Shown: positions 1 to 9,450 of the stretch, piece by piece
Layout: the number at the start of each line of letters is the position of its first letter
Numbering within the stretch: the first letter of the stretch is position 1
DNA from: a virus
Taxonomy: Duplodnaviria > Heunggongvirae > Uroviricota > Caudoviricetes
DNA: 9,450 nucleotides
IMG/VR virus record: IMGVR_UViG_2711768034_000006
Span: 1 to 9,450 of that record
Direction: 5' to 3' (one strand)
Position numbers and translations under genes: made by a program
Notes under the pieces: model-generated
Told to the model about the DNA's origin: nothing
Database searches by the model: none
What the model saw: only the letters and a program-made list of their open reading frames with translations

Positions 1-3
1 ACG

Positions 4-228
4 TTACGGGCTGGCAAACGGCACGATTTCGGCTGATGCCACCTCCCTGGTGCGATAACTACACAGCAGGTTCCGCCCTAGCTTGACCAGTTCCTGCTGC
101 ACGCCTGGCAGCCGGTCGCGAGCATGGTCTACCGCTTCCTGTTCAGTGGCGAAACCCTCCATAATTTCGGTTTCGGTGTAGGTGCCGTGTTCCGGGTCAA
201 AAGCAATGATATATGCGCGATAACTCAT
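4..228 (-). CDS. Hypothetical small protein (74 aa), last gene of primase operon
   Basis: ATG at 228 preceded by GAGGG Shine-Dalgarno about 8 nt upstream; 10 nt after primase stop; followed (via wrap) by intrinsic terminator; no family recognised. Confidence 0.55.
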   Translation of the reverse strand: MSYRAYIIAFDPEHGTYTETEIMEGFATEQEAVDHARDRLPGVQQELVKLGRNLLCSYRTREVASAEIVPFASP

Positions 229-238
229 GGTTTAGCCC

Positions 239-2554
239 TCAGAACGGTTTATCTTCGCCGTCACCGGCTGTTTCTGTCATCACTTCCTGTGCGTCACACA
301 GGGGCGGCATACCTGCACGCGCCATCTGCGCTTCACGTGACTGCGATTTGCCGTCAGCGTTCAGCCATTTGGCCTTATTGCGCAGAATCCAGCAGCGGCT
401 TGCCTTGCCGTGAACCTTAATCGGCCCATCAATTTGCAGCGCGCCAGCTTCTTCCATTGCGCGGCGCATGGCAGGTGTGAAGCGGCTTTCTTCACCGTCT
501 GACAGCACATTTGCAATGTCACCTTGCGTGATAACGTCAACCGGCCATGACAGCACCAGGCGGTCAGCGTTCTTCTGCGTCATCGACTTCGCAGCGCCAA
601 TCACTGACTGTTTGGCCGCGTTCATCGGCGGGCGTTCGCCAGGGTTAAAGCTGCTTATGTCGCGCTCCGCCAGGAACACAGCCACAGCGTTGATAAACTC
701 GCGGTCGTTCAGCGCAGCATAGAGCGTGGCGTAAACTTCCTGCGGGCGCGGCTCTGCTTCGTGATGCACGATGCGCCAGCGGCGGTCTGTGTCGTCAATC
801 GGCAGCGCGTTAAGGTGGTTACTGAACACCAGCCAGCGCATGGCGTTGTGTTCACGGTGCTGGCGGCCATACTTCGGGTTCACGTCACGATATTCAGCCG
901 TAACGATGCTGCGCAGTTTGTTGGTGTGACTGTAGCGGTTTTCGCTCACCCCGGCCTGAATCTCGTCAACGATGGCCAGAACGCGCCCAGCTAACTGGCC
1001 GTTGAACTGGCTATCAAGCAGGTTAGGCAGGTCCACGTTCGGTGCCACATAGCCACGCCATACGCGCGCCAGGACGCTGGCCAGCCAGTTGCGGCCTGTG
1101 CCGGTTTTGTTGGCCACGTGCAGCCAGCCATAGTGCGGAAGTTCGCCTGGCTTCTGCTCCAGGTGTGCCAGCCAATCCAGGAATTTTTCGCGCTCTATGG
1201 CATCCGGGAATAGGTAGGCTACATGGTCCAGAAACAGGCTGATGCCTGTCGTGGCTTCTTTGCGTTCGAGCGGTCGCCAGGTGTTGATTGCAGGGCGTCC
1301 ATCCGGGTCACGGCAGAAGATGCCCGCGCCAGGGTGGAATGTCCGAGTGATAACCGTTTTGCGCTGCGGGTCTTGTTGCCACAGAACGGCGGTAGGCACC
1401 GGCTTTTTGCGCTCGTCGCTCAGTGTCATTGACGCTGACGTAAGCTGGCGGAATTCCTTCCAGGTCATAAACATTGTTGTGTCATTGACGCTGGCCACCA
1501 TTTCACCGCTTGCGATCCACACCATAGATTCCAGCATTTCTTCGCGGGACATCGACGGCGGCAGGATGCTGACTGTTTCCGGCTGTTGCAGGCGGGCGTT
1601 TTCTTCCTGCTGCAAACGGCGGCGGGTTTCTTCCGCCACGTCAACCACGCCACCAGCGCGCGCATTGTTAAGCGCAGCCAGGACCGCATCAGCACCTTGC
1701 TCCTGGTGCAAATCATTAACATCTTTGCCTTCTGCCAGGTCGGACGGCAGGGTGGCAACCGCAAAGCCAGTGCGGAAAGCGTCAGATTCTTTGCCACGGT
1801 CAGGGACTATGACCGGAACAGCACCAGCGGCCTTGATGATGTCGGCAGCCTTGCGGATGTTGCCAGCACCAAAGGAAACCACGGCAGCGCAGCCGGTGAC
1901 GGCGTTCACGCTCCAGGCGTGGCCGATACCTTCCACGATGTAGGCTTTCTGGCCTTTCTCCAGCTTTCCAGCCGTAAATGTGCCATCCATAGGGCAGCCA
2001 CTGGCGTTGCGCTTCTCTCCTTTGTTTGGCCCTACGAACTGTAAGGAAACCAGGTTTCCGCTTGATGACCAAACAGGGATTGCCAGCCAGCCTTTCAGGC
2101 TTTTGCTTCCGCTCCTGATGTCCTGCGTAACAACGCGCAGGCCGTCAGGCTTGCCCCACTTGCGCATGATGTACGGGTGTTCAGCGGTCGCAGGTTCTGA
2201 CGCAGCCCAAATGTCAATCGGGTTGTGTTTGGCTTTTGGCTTCTCAATAGGTGCCTTTTCCGCCCTGGCTGTTGGGTCATTCCACTGCGCCACGTTACGC
2301 GCCAGCCAGAACAGCGTGTTTTCAGTCACCGAACCGTCAATCTTAAAGCTACCCCAGGCGGAACGCACATCCGCTTCATTGCGGTAGTTGGTTGCGCCCT
2401 GGCTCCAGTTATGGAAGTCATCGAATGACAGGCCAGCAGCCTTTGCAGCGCAGCCAATGCGTGCCCAATCACGGCGTGAACAGTCGTTCGGCAGGGATTC
2501 CAGGGCGCTAAGTGCGCGCTCCATGTTGGTGATTTGGTCGTATGCCAGACTCAT
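239..2554 (-). CDS. Primase / SF3 helicase, phage P4 alpha-like replication initiator (771 aa)
   Basis: Long ORF; N-terminal Trp-rich region; DnaG/Toprim-like EGxxxA motif (IVEGIGHAW, aa 206-214); helicase-like region with Walker B-like LAIVDEIQ (aa 524-531) and SF3 motif C-like LVFSNH (aa 575-580); ATGA start/stop overlap with upstream orf77; GGGGG Shine-Dalgarno. Confidence 0.85.
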   Translation of the reverse strand: MSLAYDQITNMERALSALESLPNDCSRRDWARIGCAAKAAGLSFDDFHNWSQGATNYRNEADVRSAWGSFKIDGSVTENTLFWLARNVAQWNDPTARAEKAPIEKPKAKHNPIDIWAASEPATAEHPYIMRKWGKPDGLRVVTQDIRSGSKSLKGWLAIPVWSSSGNLVSLQFVGPNKGEKRNASGCPMDGTFTAGKLEKGQKAYIVEGIGHAWSVNAVTGCAAVVSFGAGNIRKAADIIKAAGAVPVIVPDRGKESDAFRTGFAVATLPSDLAEGKDVNDLHQEQGADAVLAALNNARAGGVVDVAEETRRRLQQEENARLQQPETVSILPPSMSREEMLESMVWIASGEMVASVNDTTMFMTWKEFRQLTSASMTLSDERKKPVPTAVLWQQDPQRKTVITRTFHPGAGIFCRDPDGRPAINTWRPLERKEATTGISLFLDHVAYLFPDAIEREKFLDWLAHLEQKPGELPHYGWLHVANKTGTGRNWLASVLARVWRGYVAPNVDLPNLLDSQFNGQLAGRVLAIVDEIQAGVSENRYSHTNKLRSIVTAEYRDVNPKYGRQHREHNAMRWLVFSNHLNALPIDDTDRRWRIVHHEAEPRPQEVYATLYAALNDREFINAVAVFLAERDISSFNPGERPPMNAAKQSVIGAAKSMTQKNADRLVLSWPVDVITQGDIANVLSDGEESRFTPAMRRAMEEAGALQIDGPIKVHGKASRCWILRNKAKWLNADGKSQSREAQMARAGMPPLCDAQEVMTETAGDGEDKPF

Positions 2555-2784
2555 GCCGCACCCCCTGCCTTGCGCTGCATATCCAGCGCCATTTGCCAGG
2601 CGTCCACGCGGTTGAACGGGAAGCGGGTGTTCTCTGCCAGGTGCCCCAGGTAGATGGAATATTGCAGCGGGCGGCCAGACTGGATGGCCTGCTTAATCAG
2701 TTCCTGCATGATGGCCACGCACTGTGCGTGCGTCTGGCTGGTAGCAGGTTCGCGCATAAGGCGATGCAGGGTGATGATGCTCAT
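2551..2784 (-). CDS. Hypothetical small protein (77 aa), tandem paralog of orf91
   Basis: ATGA overlaps at both ends (2781-2784 and 2551-2554); GGGGGTGCG motif just upstream of ATG; shares DAW motif and AGGA C-terminus with orf91. Confidence 0.55.
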   Translation of the reverse strand: MSIITLHRLMREPATSQTHAQCVAIMQELIKQAIQSGRPLQYSIYLGHLAENTRFPFNRVDAWQMALDMQRKAGGAA

Positions 2785-3056
2785 TTCGCACCCCCGGCAA
2801 TCTGCGCCAGGACGGTGGCCACTTCGCGTTCCGCCAGTTGTTCAGCGTAGGCGTGCGCAGTGATGCGCCAGGCGTCATCTTTGTTCAGGCGGTAGGCTTT
2901 GTTCCCGCGCATTACAATGCGGTAGGTTGCTTCCGCTGTGTCGGTGATGCTTGAACCGTTGCGCAGCATAGCGTCAGCGAATTTGAACGCAGCATCACAG
3001 CGAGTTTCAACGGTTCTGGTTTTCAGGATGGCGTCAGCCAGGTCGTGCAATTTCAT
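2781..3056 (-). CDS. Hypothetical small protein (91 aa), first gene of primase operon
   Basis: ATG at 3056 with GAGGAA Shine-Dalgarno about 8 nt upstream; translationally coupled to orf77; no family recognised. Confidence 0.55.
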   Translation of the reverse strand: MKLHDLADAILKTRTVETRCDAAFKFADAMLRNGSSITDTAEATYRIVMRGNKAYRLNKDDAWRITAHAYAEQLAEREVATVLAQIAGGAK

Positions 3057-3064
3057 TTCGCATT

Positions 3065-3083
3065 CCTCAATATTTCGTTGAGG
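3065..3083. promoter_or_regulatory. Perfect inverted repeat CCTCAA-N7-TTGAGG overlapping the orf91 ribosome-binding site
   Basis: Read directly; on the mRNA the GAGG Shine-Dalgarno lies inside the potential stem. Confidence 0.35.
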
Positions 3084-3122
3084 CTGCGCTAAAATCGGTG
3101 GCTCAATGAAGGGGGGTTTAAC

Positions 3123-3151
3123 TTGCTAAAGGTAAAGGTCTTTGCTAGTAT
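3123..3151 (+). promoter_or_regulatory. Candidate sigma70-like promoter on plus strand (TTGCTA-17-TAGTAT), antisense to operon leader
   Basis: Hexamers with 17-nt spacer read from sequence; 4/6 match each to consensus; lies about 40 nt upstream of a plus-strand terminator-like hairpin. Confidence 0.25.
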
Positions 3152-3188
3152 TTTTCCTAGTCAGGCCGCTAACCTAGACTTTCATTAA

Positions 3189-3229
3189 GCCCCCTGGATT
3201 GTTCGCGCAGTCCGGGGGTTTTCCTTTTT
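3189..3229 (+). terminator. Plus-strand intrinsic terminator-like hairpin (CCCCC..GGGGG stem) followed by TTTTCCTTTTT
   Basis: Five consecutive G-C pairs (3190-3194 with 3214-3218) then T-rich tract 3219-3229; no plus-strand CDS upstream, so it would end a short antisense RNA. Confidence 0.35.
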
Positions 3230-3252
3230 GTGGCGGTGTGCAAGCGCCACAA
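3228..3252. promoter_or_regulatory. Perfect 8-bp inverted repeat TTGTGGCG-N9-CGCCACAA at predicted transcription start of primase operon (operator candidate)
   Basis: Read directly; lies immediately downstream of the candidate -10 element; related ATTGTGGC motif recurs at 8163-8170 upstream of operon 2. Confidence 0.35.
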
Positions 3253-3257
3253 TTCGA

Positions 3258-3285
3258 ATGATACCCTGCAATCCGGTTTCTGCAA
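3258..3285 (-). promoter_or_regulatory. Candidate sigma70 promoter for orf91-orf77-primase-orf74 operon (TTGCAG-16-TATCAT on minus strand)
   Basis: -35 at 3285..3280, -10 at 3263..3258; about 200-nt leader to orf91 start. Confidence 0.35.
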
Positions 3286-3354
3286 GCTATTTTGCCAAAA
3301 TATAGGCCGAAAATTCATAAATAATTTCAGGCATTTAAAAAGGTAAATGTCGCT

Positions 3355-3384
3355 CATAATCCCACATAATCCGGCATAATCGGT
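3355..3384. repeat. Three direct repeats of CATAATC at exact 10-bp spacing (3355, 3365, 3375)
   Basis: CATAATCCCA / CATAATCCGG / CATAATCGGT read directly; helical phasing suggests a protein-binding array; near-identical array at 8220-8249. Confidence 0.5.
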
Positions 3385-3402
3385 TAATAAATGCTAACCA
3401 TA

Positions 3403-3431
3403 AAAAAAAGCCAGAGTTTTCACCCAGGCTT
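3403..3431 (-). terminator. Candidate intrinsic terminator downstream of tape-measure gene
   Basis: Minus-strand RNA forms an imperfect GC stem (3430..3411) followed by eight U (plus-strand A8 at 3403-3410), about 27 nt after TMP stop. Confidence 0.4.
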
Positions 3432-3457: not shown

Positions 3458-5734
3458 TTACGGTGCTGCTAATCCGTCATTCATCATGCTACGATTTCGG
3501 ATTCCTTGCTGCTGTTTCAGCTTCTGCGCCACCTTATTTGCCAGCGCATCTTCATTCATGCCAGGCTCGGCCTTCACGTTGATGGTGTACTGGTCGTTCG
3601 TGTTCACCGTTGTGTTGCCGGTGCGGTTAGCCAGTGCCGGTGAAGGCAAGGACGCACCAGGGGCGGCGGTCGCTGCTGGCTGGCTGCTTTCGTCTTCACC
3701 GAACGGATTGCTAAAGAAATCTTTGGTTTTCTGCCACGCACCACCAGCAACATCAGACACGGCGTTTTTAAACTCCAGTGCCTTGTTGGTCAGGTTGCCG
3801 ATGTTGTCAGACACCCACAGAATCTTATCAATCAGGAACGTGATCGGTGCGGTCACAAGCTCGATGCCAGCCGCCAGGGTCTTACCGAACGTCATCCCCA
3901 TTTTACCGGCCTTATCCAGTTCCTCGCCGCTGTATTTGACCGGTTCGGTCAGTGACGTGAACCAGTTGAAAACCGTCTTAACCGCAGCACCCACACCATC
4001 AATGACAGGTTTCAGCGGCCCCATGCGTTCATAAAGGCGGCTCAGAGCTTCGCTAAGCGGTTCCAGCCCGGATTTGATGCCTTCACCCACTCCGCCAAAG
4101 AAAGCCTTCACACCGGCCCAATGGCGGTAAATCTGATAACCTGCCAGCGCCAGGCCAGCTACGGCAGCACCCACGCCAGTGGATATGAACGCCGCACCAA
4201 CGGCACGAATGCCGGTAGCCACCGCAGGCAGGCCACGGGTGCTGGCCAGAACGGCAGATGCGTTCATGCGGGCAAACAGGCTGGACATCTGCAACACGCC
4301 ACCTTTCAGGAACGTGAACGCAAAGCCAGCGGCGAACGTCGCCACACGTAGTGCCACCAGTGCACTGGAACCAATAACCACTGCTTTGGTCACGGTAGGG
4401 TATTCGCGCGCCAGTTCGGCAACCTTGCCGATAACCGGGCCAACGGTAGCCAGAACGCCGTTGAATGCTGGCAGCAGCACTGTGCCGATCGTGACGCCCA
4501 GGTTAGACACACGGTTGTTGAAAATCTTAAGCTGTGCCGACGTTTTGGCGGTGGCTGCCTCATATTCAGCCTGCATAGAACCGGCATATTTGGTCTTGTC
4601 TTTGACCATGTCCAGATTCTTTTGGTACGTATCAAGCTGTGTCAGCATTGGTGCGATAGCGCCAATCGATTCCTTACCAAACAGTTGCGAAAGCGTTGCC
4701 GCCTGCATGTGTTTTGGCAGCTTGCTGATCTTGGACAGGATGACGCGGATTGTTTCATCGGCGTTCAGTTGCATTGATTTTGCAACCTGCTTGGATGTGA
4801 AGCCAAGCTGTTTAAACGCTTCACGCTGTGACTTCGTGGCGGATGCGCCAGCGGTCAGGGATAGCAGCAGGTTTTTAATACCGGTGGCCGCAATCTCATT
4901 CTGCACGCCCATACCGCGCAGCGTTGCACCCATCGCAGCGATAGAACCGGAAGCTGCACCAGCGACGCTGCCAAGCGGCCCGATGCGCTGCGTGATTTCC
5001 AGGATGTCTTTGGCTGATGCGGCGGTGTTGTTGCCCAGGTAGTTGATCTTGTCAGCCAGAACGTTCATCTGGTCCTGCGTCATCCCGAAGGCGGCGCGCA
5101 TCTCTGCCATTGCCTGGCCTGCCTGGTCGGCGCTGACGTCAAAAGCCACACCCATTTTGATGGCCGATTCAGCAAACTTGGTTAGTTCGCTGGTGGCGAT
5201 GCCTGATTGAGCACCAGCGGCAACAATCTTGCCGATTTCGTTGGCTGCCATCGGCATTTTGGTTGACATATCCTGGATAGCCTGGCCCATCTTAACCAGG
5301 CCGTCAGGGGTTTCGAAGTTGGCAACCTTGCGGATATCTGCCAGCGTATCTTCAAAATCCATAGCCTGTTTGATCGGTACAGCTACCGTTGCGCCAAGTG
5401 CGACAGTCCCCAGGATTCCTTCTTTGTAGCCTTGACGCTTCGCCAGGTTGCGTTCGCGGGCATCCTCCACGCGTTTCAGGCGTTCGGTGGCAGAACGAAG
5501 GCGTTCAACCTGCCCGACAACCGTTTGATAGCGGTCCTTCATGCGGGAGAATATCGCGCTATCCTGGCCATAACGCTTCATTGCTTCATTTAACTGGCGC
5601 TGTTCGCGCGACAGCTTAGAGATTGCGCTACCAATCTCGACGGTATTTTTCTTTACAGTTCCAAATGCACCACGAAGGCTGCCGGAAACGGCCCCACCAA
5701 TCGTGATTTTTGCATTTAACTTCTTGTTGGCCAT
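3458..5734 (-). CDS. Phage tail tape-measure protein-like (758 aa)
   Basis: Coiled-coil, A/G/Q-rich N-terminal half typical of tape-measure core regions; long central hydrophobic Gly/Ala-rich segment (about aa 440-540); size typical of siphovirus tape-measure proteins; ATG at 5734. Confidence 0.75.
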   Translation of the reverse strand: MANKKLNAKITIGGAVSGSLRGAFGTVKKNTVEIGSAISKLSREQRQLNEAMKRYGQDSAIFSRMKDRYQTVVGQVERLRSATERLKRVEDARERNLAKRQGYKEGILGTVALGATVAVPIKQAMDFEDTLADIRKVANFETPDGLVKMGQAIQDMSTKMPMAANEIGKIVAAGAQSGIATSELTKFAESAIKMGVAFDVSADQAGQAMAEMRAAFGMTQDQMNVLADKINYLGNNTAASAKDILEITQRIGPLGSVAGAASGSIAAMGATLRGMGVQNEIAATGIKNLLLSLTAGASATKSQREAFKQLGFTSKQVAKSMQLNADETIRVILSKISKLPKHMQAATLSQLFGKESIGAIAPMLTQLDTYQKNLDMVKDKTKYAGSMQAEYEAATAKTSAQLKIFNNRVSNLGVTIGTVLLPAFNGVLATVGPVIGKVAELAREYPTVTKAVVIGSSALVALRVATFAAGFAFTFLKGGVLQMSSLFARMNASAVLASTRGLPAVATGIRAVGAAFISTGVGAAVAGLALAGYQIYRHWAGVKAFFGGVGEGIKSGLEPLSEALSRLYERMGPLKPVIDGVGAAVKTVFNWFTSLTEPVKYSGEELDKAGKMGMTFGKTLAAGIELVTAPITFLIDKILWVSDNIGNLTNKALEFKNAVSDVAGGAWQKTKDFFSNPFGEDESSQPAATAAPGASLPSPALANRTGNTTVNTNDQYTINVKAEPGMNEDALANKVAQKLKQQQGIRNRSMMNDGLAAP

Positions 5735-6183: not shown

Positions 6184-6501
6184 TTATGCGCTCCGCACCA
6201 GGATAGCGCCGCGCTTCACTGCCTGGCGCTTGGCCCGTTCACCGGAACTGATGCGGCTGGATGGTTGCCACTTCTTGCGTTCCAGGGTCGATGCGTGGCT
6301 TTCCGCTTCGTTGCGCATGGCGCGACCGGCTTCATCGGTCATGTGTTCGAATGCGTTTAAACGGTTGCGAAGGCTGGCCAGCAGGTCGGCTGCTTCGTAG
6401 CTGATTGGGTTTTTCTCTGAAATGGTTTGGAAACGCTTTGTTTCGCTAAGGATCAAACGCGCTTCTTCTTTCATTGATTCGTACAGGTCATGGTTTTTCA
6501 T
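6184..6501 (-). CDS. Hypothetical protein (105 aa from internal ATG; ORF-track start at 6633 probably a spurious extension)
   Basis: N-terminal 44 codons of the long ORF are W/S/T/P/H-rich and not protein-like; MKNHDLYE start at 6501 gives a helical, basic-tailed protein; no clear Shine-Dalgarno at either start. Confidence 0.4.
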   Translation of the reverse strand: MKNHDLYESMKEEARLILSETKRFQTISEKNPISYEAADLLASLRNRLNAFEHMTDEAGRAMRNEAESHASTLERKKWQPSSRISSGERAKRQAVKRGAILVRSA

Positions 6502-6715
6502 AGTATTGGCCGCTAACAATAGTTGTTGATGATTAAGTGAGTGCGCGCTTTTAGGTGACAGGTGCGGCGCAACCGGTGTGGAATTAGTGGTGGTTTTGAC
6601 CGTCCAGGATGACCACCAACCTGGTTCCAGCATCCATCGTCTGAGGAACGATGAAGGTTAAATTTGGCCGGTTATTTTGGGCACAGGGAACCGGTGAAAC
6701 CTGTATTCTTGGCCA

Positions 6716-8085: not shown

Positions 8086-8219
8086 TAAAAATGCTCCGGT
8101 TGTTGTGCAATAAATCGTCTGGAATGACTTAAAGATATACAGTAACCAGACCGAACACAATAGCCACAATGTGAGCTTTTTAATGTAAAATCAGTAACTT
8201 ATAACCCTGAATACTTGCA

Positions 8220-8249
8220 AATAACCAGGCATAATCCGGCGTAATCGAT
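8220..8249. repeat. Second copy of the phased 10-bp repeat array (AATAACCAGG / CATAATCCGG / CGTAATCGAT) upstream of operon 2
   Basis: Shares the 17-mer CATAATCCGGC[A/G]TAATCG with 3365-3381. Confidence 0.45.
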
Positions 8250-8570: not shown

Positions 8571-9065
8571 TAATCTGACATATTCCGCGCGCTTTCAGCC
8601 CGTATTCACTCAGGCTTATTGTTGCGATATGTGCAACGTTCTGGCTGTTTACTGAACAGCTACTGTTTGAACGCAAAACAAGGCTGAAAGGCTCGTTTCC
8701 TGTAGTTACATCATACTTCTGTATGTTGTACCTATTCCGGCTGCTGCTTTGGTTAGACGTGAAAAAGCGTGGTTACGAATGAGCGGACCACCACCAGCAC
8801 CCATGCCGCCCAGGCACCCCATCCGGTTACAACGCTGAATTGAGTTGTAACCGTGTTATGTTTCTGAAAAATAACAAATTTCGTGCAATCGGTTACAACG
8901 GTTACGCCAAGTTCATAAAGTTTGGAAAAAGCACTATGGGTATATAGGAATATACGAATTTCTTTTTTTTACTAATCTGTTGTAACCATTGTAACCGGAA
9001 TGGGTAAAATCATTAATATTCAGTGGCTTGCGTGGTTACAACGCCGGTTACAACACCGATTTTGC

Positions 9066-9092
9066 GTTGTAACCGTTGTAACCGTTGTAACC
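9066..9092. repeat. Three perfect tandem copies of GTTGTAACC
   Basis: Read directly. Confidence 0.9.
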
Positions 9093-9103
9093 GTAGTAGG
9101 CAT

Positions 9104-9129
9104 AAAAAAGCCCCGGCAGATGCCAGGGC
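9104..9129 (-). terminator. Intrinsic terminator ending the primase operon
   Basis: Minus-strand RNA GCCCUGGC-AUCU-GCCGGGGC (8-bp stem with one G-U, 4-nt loop) followed by UUUUUU, 25 nt after orf74 stop. Confidence 0.55.
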
Positions 9130-9151: not shown

Positions 9152-9450
9152 ACGTTACGGGCTGGCAAACGGCACGATTTCGGCTGATGCCACCTCCCTG
9201 GTGCGATAACTACACAGCAGGTTCCGCCCTAGCTTGACCAGTTCCTGCTGCACGCCTGGCAGCCGGTCGCGAGCATGGTCTACCGCTTCCTGTTCAGTGG
9301 CGAAACCCTCCATAATTTCGGTTTCGGTGTAGGTGCCGTGTTCCGGGTCAAAAGCAATGATATATGCGCGATAACTCATGGTTTAGCCCTCAGAACGGTT
9401 TATCTTCGCCGTCACCGGCTGTTTCTGTCATCACTTCCTGTGCGTCACAC
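9152..9450. repeat. Wrap-around duplicate of window positions 1-299
   Basis: Identical sequence; the ORF track lists the same 74-aa protein at 4..228 and 9155..9379. Confidence 0.9.
9155..9379 (-). CDS. Second copy of the 74-aa hypothetical protein (same locus as 4..228 via wrap-around)
   Basis: Identical translation in ORF track. Confidence 0.55.
   Translation of the reverse strand: MSYRAYIIAFDPEHGTYTETEIMEGFATEQEAVDHARDRLPGVQQELVKLGRNLLCSYRTREVASAEIVPFASP

What the first reader, a model, noticed from the sequence alone, without database searches (positions are those of the whole stretch)
3123..3229. Possible cis-antisense RNA against the primase operon leader
A plus-strand promoter-like TTGCTA-17-TAGTAT (3123-3151) is followed about 40 nt later by a GC-stem plus T-tract terminator (3189-3229), with no plus-strand CDS between. 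The roughly 70-nt product would be fully complementary to the leader of the orf91-primase mRNA. That is the classic layout of plasmid copy-number countertranscripts.
Basis: inference. Interest (0 to 1): 0.55.

Follow-up and report, generated by a model that had tools for sequence, protein, structure and literature searches.

The report
Antisense RNA gene facing primase operon
A small plasmid-like phage satellite appears to encode a roughly 70-base RNA, read backwards across the start of its replication-gene transcript, laid out like the antisense RNAs that plasmids use to limit their copy number; this is a new example of a well-known kind of regulator, supported here by sequence comparison only.

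Summary
TTGCTA-17-TAGTAT (3123-3151, with an extended -10 TG) is the best sigma-70-like site on either strand of this 9151-bp circle. The hairpin plus T-tract at 3191-3229 is the best terminator-like site. Both lie on the strand that carries no genes, 40 nt apart.

Relatives keep the invariant -10, the 17-nt spacer, a first hairpin (SL1) with the invariant loop CCGCUAA, and the terminator hairpin (SL2). This holds even where the two genes downstream of the leader are only about 30% identical in protein. The terminator hairpin changes by compensated events. It has G.U pairs that work only on the plus strand, which is 7.6-8.1 kcal/mol more stable than its complement.

A conserved minus-strand promoter (3285-3258) implies a 195-nt leader. 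The RNA would pair with leader positions +23 to +93.

Integrated cousins with int-alpA have the same layout upstream of their primase operon. No Rfam family matches.

Best reading: a cis-antisense countertranscript that represses the translationally coupled orf91-orf77-primase operon. It is a new member of a known kind. Expression and the effect on copy number are untested, and formal covariation statistics are weak because only about four lineages exist.

One further point: the invariant loop is also complementary to the ribosome-binding region of a 105-aa gene elsewhere in the element.

The parts
3123..3128 (+). -35 hexamer TTGCTA of the candidate sRNA promoter
   Evidence: Read directly. 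TTGC is conserved in all lineages; the L005 type has TTGCGG.
3143..3151 (+). Extended -10 (TGc) plus -10 hexamer TAGTAT
   Evidence: CTTTGCTAGTAT is invariant in the window, L002, L003, L005 and L032, and the spacer is always 17 nt. Rank 1 in the position-weight scan of both strands.
3159..3229 (+). Predicted sRNA of about 68-71 nt. The start is inferred at A3159 or G3160 and the end lies within the T-tract.
   Evidence: Two-hairpin fold of -27.7 to -28.1 kcal/mol, z = -3.6. The covariance model finds it in every relative with the same layout, at 61-99 bits. No Rfam family matches.
3159..3180 (+). SL1: stem AGUCAGG/CCU(A)GACU with 7-nt loop CCGCUAA (3166-3172, which contains the YUNR motif CUAA)
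   Evidence: The loop is invariant across lineages, while the stem is rebuilt in the L005 type as AGGU..GGUG/CACC..GCCU.
3187..3229 (+). SL2: terminator hairpin (3187-3221, core 3191-3218) and T-tract TTTTCCTTTTT (3219-3229)
   Evidence: Heads the terminator table. The plus strand folds at -22.1 kcal/mol against -14.5 for the minus strand; in L005 the values are -19.5 against -11.4. The L003 changes fall only in the loop and the bulge.
3258..3285 (-). Candidate promoter of the orf91-orf77-primase mRNA: TTGCAG-16-TATCAT
   Evidence: Conserved as TTGCAG or TTGCGT at -35 and TATCAT or TAATCT at -10. Integrated relatives have TTGCAT or TTGCAA, a 17-nt spacer and TATCTT at the equivalent place. Fourth best on the minus strand.
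3228..3252 (-). Inverted repeat TTGTGGCG-N9-CGCCACAA. It would be the 5'-terminal hairpin of the mRNA, or an operator over the transcription start.
   Evidence: Folds in every leader. L005 (GUGGCAGGG/CCCUACCAC) and the integrated relatives (UGUGC/GCACA) have a different sequence with the same position and shape.
3057..3251 (-). 195-nt leader of the primase-operon mRNA. The sRNA is complementary to about +23 to +93.
   Evidence: Leader length is 195, 194, 194 and 193 nt in the four lineages. Synonymous-site divergence here is 0.11, against 0.36-0.49 in orf91.
3179..3191 (-). Arm X (GGCUUAAUGAAAG) of a long-range helix in the leader. It lies inside the sRNA target, opposite the sRNA linker.
   Evidence: Pairs with 3100-3112 in the minimum-energy folds of the window, L002 and L003. 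Two of 13 pairs change on both sides, A-U to G-C. Not recognisable in L005.
3100..3112 (-). Arm Y (CCUUCAUUGAGCC) of the long-range leader helix
3065..3083 (-). Hairpin CCUCAA-N7-UUGAGG that encloses the Shine-Dalgarno sequence of orf91
   Evidence: Present in the folds of the window and L002, and weaker in L003.
2781..3056 (-). orf91, first gene of the operon
   Evidence: ORF list. Only three protein clusters are known. pN/pS is 0.28-0.52. Its stop overlaps the orf77 start as ATGA.
2551..2784 (-). orf77, second gene, joined by ATGA overlaps on both sides
239..2554 (-). Primase-helicase (PriCT_2, Toprim_3, DUF5906), the presumed replication initiator
6508..6517 (-). GUUAGCGGCC, a perfect complement of the sRNA SL1 loop plus closing pairs. 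It lies 6 nt upstream of the likely start codon (6501) of a 105-aa gene.
   Evidence: Best of 13 translation-initiation regions in the cofold gain, -15.0 against -7.7 kcal/mol for the next.
3402..3429 (-). Terminator of the upstream tape-measure operon: hairpin 3429-3410, then U8
   Evidence: Read directly. Conserved with changed stems in L002, L003 and L005. Appears as the terminator part of a weak MicX match.

Best explanation
The plus strand at 3159-3229 encodes a cis-antisense RNA (countertranscript) of about 70 nt.

**What it is.** It is made from a strong constitutive promoter (3123-3151) and ended by an intrinsic terminator (3187-3229). It has a 5' recognition hairpin with loop CCGCUAA, an A/U-rich linker, and the terminator hairpin.

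**What it pairs with.** It is fully complementary to positions about +23 to +93 of the 195-nt leader of the orf91-orf77-primase mRNA. That mRNA starts at about 3251 from the convergent promoter at 3285-3258.

**How it would work (inferred).**
- Pairing starts as a loop-loop kiss between SL1 and its complement in the leader.
- Pairing then spreads to a full duplex.
- The duplex lowers expression of orf91. The likely routes are RNase III cleavage with loss of the protective 5' hairpin, disruption of the leader's X:Y fold, or both. Collision between the convergent promoters may also contribute.
- The ATGA overlaps couple translation, so orf77 and the primase-helicase fall with orf91.
- The amount of sRNA follows gene dosage. 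The loop is therefore negative feedback on replication of an element that has no integrase and lives as a plasmid.

**Shown and inferred.** Shown: the sequence features, their conservation and the strand asymmetry. Inferred: transcription, pairing, the step that is repressed, and the effect on copy number.
For: 1. **Signals.** The best promoter-like and the best terminator-like sites of the whole circle lie 40 nt apart on the gene-free strand.
2. **Fold.** The RNA fold has z = -3.6.
3. **Conservation.** The 404-bp intergenic region is 98.8-100% identical in five PLSDB plasmids from E. coli, Salmonella and Proteus. Its core is nearly invariant in L002 and L003, whose orf91 is only 70-75% identical in protein. 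It is still recognisable in the L005 and L032 type, where the two small ORFs are only weakly similar to the window's (34% for orf97 against orf77, and a marginal local match for orf84 against orf91).
4. **Where the changes fall.** L003 changes lie in the SL2 loop and bulge, the linker, the T-tract and the discriminator. In L005 the SL2 stem differs by one U.G to A-U double change, one removed base pair together with the bulge, and one C to U change that makes a G.U pair.
5. **Strand asymmetry.** SL2 folds at -22.1 kcal/mol on the plus strand against -14.5 on the minus strand. In L005 the values are -19.5 against -11.4.
6. **Promoter details.** The -10 and extended -10 are invariant and the spacer is fixed at 17 nt.
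7. **Target mRNA.** The convergent mRNA promoter is conserved and the leader length is held at 193-195 nt.
8. **Integrated cousins.** These int-alpA-primase elements have the same layout: mRNA promoter, 5' hairpin, then the complement of a strong antisense-strand terminator. That terminator folds at -20.4 and -20.0 kcal/mol on the antisense strand against -12.0 and -15.9 on the sense strand. An antisense promoter TGGAAA or TGGATA, 17 nt, TATAGT is present. In the antisense-strand consensus fold, 8 of 39 pairs change on both sides.
9. **Overlapping ORF is not coding.** ORF62 has pN/pS of 1.2-1.35 and is broken in L005.
Against: - **No expression data.** None exists, and none could be searched here.
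- **Few lineages.** Only about four are known, so formal covariation is not significant. The sRNA shows 1 pair with a double change, reached by 103 of 500 shuffles. RNAalifold on the MAFFT alignment shows no compensatory pair, because L005 is out of register.
- **Weak consensus match.** The promoter matches 8/12 positions.
- **Weak terminator tail in L005.** Its T-tract is interrupted (UUUCGUCGUUUCU).
- **No predicted effect on the ribosome-binding site.** Folding the leader with the target masked changes predicted accessibility of the orf91 site very little, and not consistently (0.34 to 0.31, 0.43 to 0.31, 0.58 to 0.45, 0.41 to 0.40). No attenuator terminator is visible in the leader, so the step that is repressed is unknown.
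- **The invariant loop is unexplained by cis pairing alone.** A cis target co-varies automatically, so something else must hold the loop sequence.
Confidence: 0.6

Rival explanations
1. The RNA is real, but its main role is in trans, as an Hfq-type regulator. Its invariant SL1 loop pairs with the ribosome-binding region of the 105-aa gene (6508-6517), and in L005-type elements with that of orf84. The overlap with the primase leader would be secondary.
For: - GUUAGCGGCC lies 6 nt before the start codon at 6501 and is a perfect 10-nt complement of the loop plus closing pairs.
- It gives the best cofold gain of 13 initiation regions, -15.0 against -7.7 kcal/mol.
- L005-type elements carry a second copy, GGUUAGCGGC, between the SD and the AUG of orf84.
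- The loop is invariant although a cis target would co-vary with it for free.
- The A/U-rich linker followed by a terminator with a U-tail is the usual Hfq-binding layout (established knowledge).
Against: - The motif CAACAAnnATTGTTAGCGG upstream of the 105-aa gene is equally conserved in integrated relatives that have no SL1-like loop. Its conservation therefore does not depend on this RNA.
- It may be a DNA operator half-site or part of the SD.
- No covariation is available to test the pairing.
- The chance of such a match is roughly 0.001-0.015 per lineage (my estimate).
Confidence: 0.22
2. The conserved block is a cis-acting structure of the mRNA leader on the sense strand, for example a protein-binding or stability element. 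Under this reading the plus-strand promoter-like site is not used, and no functional antisense RNA exists.
For: - The long-range helix X:Y (3179-3191 with 3100-3112) can only belong to the minus-strand transcript, and it shows two A-U to G-C double changes.
- The 5' hairpin and the leader length are conserved.
- The leader fold has z = -2.7.
Against: - The SL2 wobble pairs become C.A mismatches on the sense strand, at a cost of 7.6-8.1 kcal/mol in both divergent lineages. The equivalent terminator of the integrated relatives loses 4.1-8.4 kcal/mol in the same way.
- A T-tract follows the hairpin only on the plus strand.
- The plus-strand promoter is the best-scoring site in the element and its -10 is invariant.
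- A structured target is expected for a countertranscript, so the X:Y helix is compatible with the main explanation.
Confidence: 0.12
3. The hairpin and T-tract act only as an insulator. They stop stray antisense transcription before it runs into the primase-operon promoter, and the promoter-like site upstream is fortuitous.
For: The terminator ends about 30 nt before the mRNA promoter's -10. All genes are on the other strand, so any plus-strand transcription is noise.
Against: This does not explain the invariant -10 and extended -10 with the fixed 17-nt spacer, the conserved SL1 with its invariant loop, or the conserved distance from promoter to terminator. Integrated relatives also pair an antisense promoter with the terminator.
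Confidence: 0.08
4. The block works at the DNA level, as a single-strand initiation site, part of the origin, or a packaging signal. The hairpins would form in single-stranded DNA.
For: - The replicon depends on a primase.
- G.T pairs are also tolerated in DNA hairpins.
- Phased CATAATC repeats lie 120-160 bp away.
- The satellite must carry a packaging site somewhere.
Against: - The hexamers, their spacing and the T-tract are transcription signals.
- The clearer candidate origin is the GTTGTAACC iteron field at 8816-9105.
- The block sits exactly between a conserved promoter and the first gene of the operon, and integrated relatives keep it upstream of alpA.
Confidence: 0.07
5. The conservation reflects a 62-codon gene on the minus strand (3169-3357), which gene callers predict in L002 and L003.
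For: The ORF is open in the window, L002 and L003, with no indels.
Against: - pN/pS is 1.24-1.35, against 0.20-0.52 in orf91 and orf77.
- Synonymous divergence is only 0.11, so the constraint is on the nucleotides themselves.
- The frame is interrupted in L005 and no gene is called there.
- The predicted mRNA start at about 3251 lies downstream of its AUG.
Confidence: 0.02

Closest known systems
CopA/CopT of plasmid R1 (IncFII) and related FII-type countertranscripts
   Same: - A short, constitutively made RNA from the opposite strand.
- It lies inside the leader of the replication-initiator mRNA, about 100 nt upstream of the first ORF.
- It has a recognition hairpin with a small loop, followed by a terminator hairpin.
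- Control would pass to the initiator through translational coupling: tap to repA in R1, and here orf91 to orf77 to primase through ATGA overlaps.
   Different: - No sequence or covariance-model similarity; no Rfam family reaches its threshold or comes near.
- The initiator is a primase-helicase, not a RepA protein.
- The host element is a phage-satellite-like plasmid.
- The repressed step is unknown.
Inc RNA / RNAI of the IncI-alpha, IncB and IncL/M plasmids (ColIb-P9, pMU720)
   Same: - An antisense RNA of about 70 nt to the rep leader.
- A loop whose sequence is itself constrained, because the target loop has a second partner.
- In L005-type elements the target loop (UUAGCGGC) and the start region of orf84 (UUAGCGGCUAUG) could both pair with an intervening GCCGC. 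That would resemble activator-pseudoknot logic (read by eye).
   Different: - No such second partner is visible in the window lineage.
- There is no leader peptide such as repY.
- No sequence similarity.
Immunity RNAs of satellite P4 (CI RNA) and of phages P1/P7 (C4), and the sar RNA of P22
   Same: A small structured RNA that controls the early or replication operon of a satellite or phage. Its loop sequences pair near ribosome-binding sites.
   Different: - CI and C4 are processed from the same strand as their targets. This RNA has its own promoter on the opposite strand.
- Nothing from these families appears even among sub-threshold Rfam hits.
- To my knowledge P4 controls its plasmid copy number through the Cnr protein (from memory).
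Attenuation-type countertranscripts of pT181, pIP501 and pAMbeta1
   Same: An antisense RNA to the rep leader, made from a convergent promoter.
   Different: Those systems need an intrinsic terminator in the sense leader downstream of the target. None is visible here: there is no hairpin followed directly by a U-run on the minus strand between 3158 and 3057.

Membership tests
Plasmid replication countertranscripts (generic kind) | Own promoter on the strand opposite the rep mRNA, inside its leader | tested here: met
   TTGCTA-17-TAGTAT with an extended -10 ranks first in the position-weight scan. The -10 and the spacing are conserved. This is in silico only.
Plasmid replication countertranscripts (generic kind) | Intrinsic terminator that gives a short RNA of 50-150 nt | tested here: met
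   It heads the terminator table, is conserved with plus-strand-only wobble pairs, and gives a product of about 70 nt.
Plasmid replication countertranscripts (generic kind) | Stem-loop with a 5-8-nt recognition loop, often with a YUNR motif | tested here: met
   The SL1 loop is CCGCUAA (7 nt, containing CUAA) and is invariant in all lineages.
Plasmid replication countertranscripts (generic kind) | The rep mRNA starts upstream of the RNA, so that it contains the full complement | tested here: inconclusive
   A conserved promoter TTGCAG-16-TATCAT at 3285-3258 predicts a start at about 3251. No 5'-end mapping exists.
Plasmid replication countertranscripts (generic kind) | The RNA is expressed, lowers initiator expression, and sets copy number and incompatibility | not testable with these tools
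   This needs RNA detection, fusions, and copy-number and incompatibility assays.
Rfam antisense and countertranscript families (CopA, RNAI, the ctRNA_* families, C4, sar, FinP and others) | Match to the family covariance model at its gathering score | tested here: not met
   No hit at gathering score in the window or in L003, L005, L031 and L033. On the plus strand the only sub-threshold hits are generic terminator-like matches: NsiR1 at 19.7 against 39 bits and trpB at 20.1 against 59 bits.
Attenuation-type countertranscript systems (pT181 / pIP501) | Intrinsic terminator in the sense leader downstream of the target | tested here: not met
   No minus-strand terminator-like site between 3158 and 3057. 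None appears in the leader folds.
Type I toxin-antitoxin (hok/sok-like) | Small hydrophobic toxin ORF overlapped or preceded by the antisense RNA | tested here: not met
   ORF62 is not under protein-level selection and is broken in L005. By inspection of its sequence, orf91 is 91 aa and hydrophilic.

The most novel reading that the evidence does not exclude
The countertranscript may do two jobs. Besides pairing in cis with the primase-operon leader, its invariant loop (GGCCGCUAAC) may pair in trans with the ribosome-binding region of the 105-aa gene in the structural-gene block that ends with the tape-measure gene. In L005-type elements it may also pair directly with the start region of the first replication-operon gene. 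Replicon dosage would then be wired to expression of a conserved satellite gene. This would also explain why the loop never changes. The same antisense module may be a general, undescribed control layer upstream of the alpA-primase operons of a family of integrated satellite-like islands in Enterobacterales.
Probability: 0.22. Interest if true: 0.65.

Novelty: new member of a known kind. Interest (0 to 1): 0.5.

Why it matters
**A concrete, testable control element.** If real, this gives a poorly known class of about 9-kb plasmids in E. coli, Salmonella, Proteus and Cronobacter a defined copy-number control element. These plasmids have no integrase, are phage-satellite-like and carry a tape-measure gene.

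**Wider reach.** The chromosomally integrated cousins (int-alpA-primase islands next to fis/dusB) appear to carry an equivalent antisense RNA over the leader of their induction and replication operon. In the literature I could search, control of such islands is discussed in terms of proteins such as AlpA and repressors. The only RNA regulator I can name is P4's CI, from memory.

**Practical uses.**
- It predicts incompatibility determinants for these replicons.
- It flags a spurious 62-codon gene call.
- It defines an RNA family that is absent from Rfam.

The mechanism class itself is textbook, so a specialist would find this moderately rather than highly surprising.

Tried and rejected
- **Rfam.** Scans at gathering score and at E up to 10 gave nothing beyond generic terminator-like matches.
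- **tRNA or tmRNA, or an att-site remnant.** None found.
- **ORF62 as a gene.** Rejected on pN/pS and on the broken frame in L005.
- **Searches for more relatives.**
  - orf91 protein against viral contigs gave nothing.
  - Exact DNA patterns against viral contigs gave nothing.
  - The pattern GTTAGCGG-N(8-24)-TACTAGCAAAG gave 7 matches in unrelated taxa, taken as chance, in genome contigs.
  - In metagenome contigs it gave 5 such matches plus one near-identical copy, L026.
  - Phage records had no match to the intergenic DNA.
  - More distant primase homologues (L008, L009, L017, L018) and other small plasmids of about 8.7-9.3 kb (L019-L022) have different layouts, and the model found nothing convincing in them.
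- **Formal covariation on the sRNA.** It is not significant with so few lineages, and MAFFT and the covariance model put the L005 upper stem out of register. The compensated events were therefore read from the separate folds of each lineage.
- **Masking the target in the leader folds.** No consistent change in accessibility of the ribosome-binding site.
- **Arm Y pairing with the orf91 start codon or with the anti-SD.** Considered by eye and dropped, because the partner does not co-vary in L002 or L003.
- **Plain RNAduplex scan of the whole coding strand.** Uninformative because of long GC-rich pseudo-duplexes. Replaced by the cofold gain on initiation regions.
- **CRP-like reading of the TGTG...CACA repeat.** Dropped because the spacing is wrong.
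- **Literature.** Searches found no description of these plasmids or of an antisense RNA in alpA-primase islands.
Full report
**What the window is.** Bases 1-299 repeat at 9152-9450, so the window is a 9151-bp circle read past its start.
- All convincing genes lie on the minus strand.
- They include a primase-helicase at 239-2554 (PriCT_2, Toprim_3, DUF5906).
- Two small ORFs, orf77 (2551-2784) and orf91 (2781-3056), are joined to each other and to the primase by ATGA stop/start overlaps.
- Upstream of a 400-bp intergenic region lies a strong tape-measure-protein homologue at 3458-5734 (PhageMin_Tail; phrog_28, E = 1.5e-129).
- The intergenic region is 98.8-100% identical in five non-mobilizable plasmids of 8.9-9.3 kb (one of them 17.4 kb) from E. 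coli, Salmonella and Proteus.

**Checking the observation.** A TG at 3143-3144 adds an extended -10.
- The site matches only 8 of 12 consensus positions, so the tool's scan did not list it.
- In my position-weight scan of every position on both strands it is the top site, at 12.3 bits against 10.6 for the next.
- The hairpin CCCCTGGATTGTTCGCGCAGTCCGGGGG plus TTTTCCTTTT (3191-3218, tail to 3229) heads the terminator table, although the number of terminator-like sites overall is no more than chance.
- The 73-nt stretch folds into two hairpins at -28.1 kcal/mol, z = -3.6.
- No credible plus-strand ORF lies between them.
- No Rfam family and no tRNA matches.

The best promoter-like and best terminator-like sites of the element sit 40 nt apart on the strand that carries no genes.

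**Relatives.** orf91 is rare, with three protein clusters in 5.8 billion.
- L002 and L003 have orf91 at 75% and 70% identity.
- L004, L005, L006 and L032 have a primase 87% identical to the window's. Their small ORFs are only weakly similar to the window's: orf97 is 34% identical to orf77, and orf84 gives only a marginal local match to orf91.
- All keep the layout: tape measure, terminator, intergenic region of about 400 bp, two small ORFs, primase.
- Pattern scans of the genome, metagenome and viral collections added only one near-identical copy, L026.
- That leaves four lineages: the window group, L002, L003 and the L005 group.

**What the comparison shows.**
- *Conservation.* The core of the intergenic region (window about 3085-3260) is nearly invariant in L002 and L003, although the flanking gene has diverged strongly. 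Synonymous-site divergence is 0.11 here against 0.36-0.49 in orf91.
- *ORF62.* The 62-codon minus-strand ORF that gene callers predict here (3169-3357) has pN/pS of 1.24-1.35 and is interrupted in L005. It does not explain the conservation.
- *L003 changes.* Within the candidate RNA they fall in the SL2 loop (UCGC to UGCC), the SL2 bulge (U to A), the linker, the T-tract (still U/C-rich) and the 2 nt just after the -10. The stems are untouched.
- *L005 changes.*
  - CTTTGCTAGTAT (the extended -10 and the -10) is invariant.
  - The spacer stays at 17 nt.
  - The -35 keeps TTGC.
  - The 7-nt SL1 loop CCGCUAA is invariant, while the SL1 stem is rebuilt (AGUCAGG/CCU(A)GACU becomes AGGU..GGUG/CACC..GCCU).
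  - The SL2 stem differs by one double change (U.G to A-U), removal of a G-C pair together with the bulged U, and one C to U change that makes a G.U pair.
- *Strand asymmetry.* The wobble pairs exist only on the plus strand. SL2 folds at -22.1 kcal/mol on the plus strand against -14.5 on the minus strand in the window and L003, and at -19.5 against -11.4 in L005.
- *Formal statistics.* These are weak, because there are so few lineages and automatic alignment puts the L005 stem out of register. I rely on the separate folds of each lineage and say so.

**The target mRNA.** On the minus strand, TTGCAG-16-TATCAT (3285-3258) is conserved. L002 has TTGCGT at the -35 and L005 has TAATCT at the -10. 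It is the fourth best minus-strand site.
- It predicts a start near 3251 and a leader of 195 nt. The other lineages give 194, 194 and 193 nt.
- The leader begins with a hairpin (inverted repeat 3228-3252). In L005 that hairpin has a different sequence but the same shape.
- The candidate RNA ends in the T-tract at 3219-3229, just short of that start. It is therefore complementary to about +23 to +93 of the leader.
- The upstream tape-measure operon has its own terminator at 3429-3402.
- Within the leader, 3179-3191 pairs with 3100-3112 in the minimum-energy folds of the window, L002 and L003. Two of the 13 pairs change on both sides, A-U to G-C. One arm lies inside the target, so binding of the RNA would break this helix. 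I could not find the helix in L005.
- The Shine-Dalgarno sequence of orf91 sits in a small hairpin at 3065-3083.
- Masking the target in silico did not change predicted accessibility of the ribosome-binding site consistently. No sense-strand attenuator terminator is present. How pairing represses is therefore unresolved.

**Integrated cousins.** The 74-aa gene next to the primase led to chromosomal islands in Klebsiella, Cronobacter and E. coli, beside fis/dusB/yhdJ.
- Their order is int, alpA, orf93, VapE-type primase, orf74, several small genes, then tape measure.
- They are the same kind of element, but with an integrase and AlpA where the window has the leader, orf91 and orf77.
- Their int-alpA spacer has the same architecture, with unalignable sequence:
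  - a sense promoter TTGCAT or TTGCAA, 17 nt, TATCTT;
  - a 5' hairpin;
  - an A-tract;
  - the complement of a strong antisense-strand terminator.
- That terminator is AGAGCCCTCGGTACTGCTGGGGGCTCT+T5 in L033 and AGAGCCATCGGTATTTCCGGTGGCTCT+T7 in L031. It folds at -20.4 and -20.0 kcal/mol on the antisense strand against -12.0 and -15.9 on the sense strand.
- An antisense promoter TGGAAA or TGGATA, 17 nt, TATAGT lies about 130 nt upstream of it.
- The antisense-strand consensus fold of four such islands has four hairpins, and 8 of 39 pairs change on both sides. One E. coli island lacks the terminal hairpin.
- This is independent support that an antisense transcription unit over the leader of the replication operon is a family trait.

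**Mosaicism.** The same intergenic region, at 99-100% identity, is joined to two different primase-helicases, with a DUF5906 or a VapE C-terminal part. The control module travels as a unit with orf91 and orf77.

**The loop.** A cis-antisense loop and its target co-vary automatically, so an invariant loop needs another reason.
- The complement of the loop plus its closing pairs, GUUAGCGGCC, occurs once more on the coding strand at 6517-6508.
- That copy lies 6 nt before the ATG at 6501, the start used for the 105-aa gene in pM121-3 and its relatives.
- This start region gives by far the best cofold gain of 13 start regions, -15.0 against -7.7 kcal/mol.
- L005-type elements have a second copy, GGUUAGCGGC, between the SD and the AUG of orf84.
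- Against a trans role: the motif CAACAAnnATTGTTAGCGG is just as conserved upstream of the 105-aa gene in the integrated islands, which have no SL1-like loop. It may be an operator or an SD in its own right.
- I keep a trans role as the most novel reading that the evidence does not exclude.

**Verdict.** The feature is most likely a countertranscript-type antisense RNA of about 70 nt against the leader of the orf91-orf77-primase operon.
- It would give dosage-dependent negative feedback on replication of a plasmid-like phage satellite.
- It works like CopA of R1 or the Inc RNAs of I-complex plasmids, but belongs to no curated family.
- It is a new member of a known kind.
- Confidence is about 0.6. 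The missing pieces are expression, the mapped mRNA start, and a functional test.

Noticed in passing
window 1-299 and 9152-9450: The window is a 9151-bp circular element read with a 299-bp overlap. It is near-identical to small non-mobilizable plasmids of E. coli, Salmonella and Proteus (pM121-3 and others) that have no published description I could find.
   Followed up: yes
window 3458-5734 (-): A 758-aa protein that is a strong tail tape-measure homologue (phrog_28, E = 1.5e-129) is carried by a 9-kb integrase-less replicon. No other gene product scanned gave a recognisable structural-protein match; the 322-aa product had no hit. A satellite that brings its own tape measure would be unusual.
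   Followed up: partly
L029, L031, L033-L036, L039, L040 (Klebsiella, Cronobacter and E. coli chromosomes beside fis/dusB/yhdJ): These are integrated cousins of the element: int, alpA, orf93, VapE primase, orf74, several small genes, tape measure. The window's form has swapped int-alpA for the leader, orf91 and orf77, which suggests a switch from an integrating to a plasmid lifestyle.
   Followed up: partly
L033:3650-3790 (-), L031:3656-3795 (-), L040:2493-2631 (-): The int-alpA spacer of the integrated cousins carries an antisense-strand promoter, four hairpins and a strong terminator, which would give an RNA of about 135 nt. In the consensus fold 8 of 39 pairs change on both sides. No Rfam family matches. 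E. coli L039 has a 31-nt deletion that removes the terminal hairpin.
   Followed up: partly
window 6499-6530 (-), and the same place in L001, L003, L026, L029, L031, L033-L035: The motif CAACAAnnATTGTTAGCGG(C/A)C lies directly upstream of the start codon of a gene of 105-112 aa in every relative. It contains a 6-2-6 inverted repeat and the complement of the sRNA loop. The mechanical ORF 6184-6633 is 44 codons too long; the start is probably the ATG at 6501.
   Followed up: partly
window 8816-9105: A field of GTTGTAACC repeats in both orientations (direct family D3; inverted pairs I1, I9, I10, I19, I20) lies between the 74-aa gene and the next operon. It is the most origin-like sequence in the element.
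   Followed up: no
window 3346-3382 and 8211-8247: Triplets of CATAATC(C/G) spaced 10 bp apart occur twice, each upstream of an operon (the primase operon and the 322-aa gene operon). They are conserved in L002, L003 and L005, and may be shared binding sites for a regulator.
   Followed up: no
window 239-2554 compared with NZ_CP083588.1, CP054330.1 and NZ_CP100673.1: Plasmids with a 99-100% identical 404-bp intergenic region carry a different primase-helicase. Theirs has a VapE-type C-terminal half, with only 28-48% identity over part of the N-terminal part. The replication gene is mosaic while the control region is fixed.
   Followed up: partly
window 2551-3056 (-): orf91 and orf77 look like weak tandem paralogues: both contain a DAW motif and both end in ...GGAA or ...GGAK. 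They have no family match. L005-type elements have very diverged versions (orf84, orf97).
   Followed up: partly
window 3169-3357 (-): A 62-codon ORF that gene callers predict in two relatives is not under protein-level selection (pN/pS 1.24-1.35) and is broken in L005. It is probably an annotation artefact caused by conserved non-coding DNA.
   Followed up: yes
L019-L022 (plasmids of 8.7-9.3 kb from Moellerella, E. coli, Klebsiella and Citrobacter): Other circular plasmids of about 9 kb have nearly all genes on one strand, a DUF5906-type or primase-helicase gene, a recombinase and, in one case, a major capsid protein. They hint at a wider, little-studied world of phage-derived mini-replicons.
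   Followed up: no
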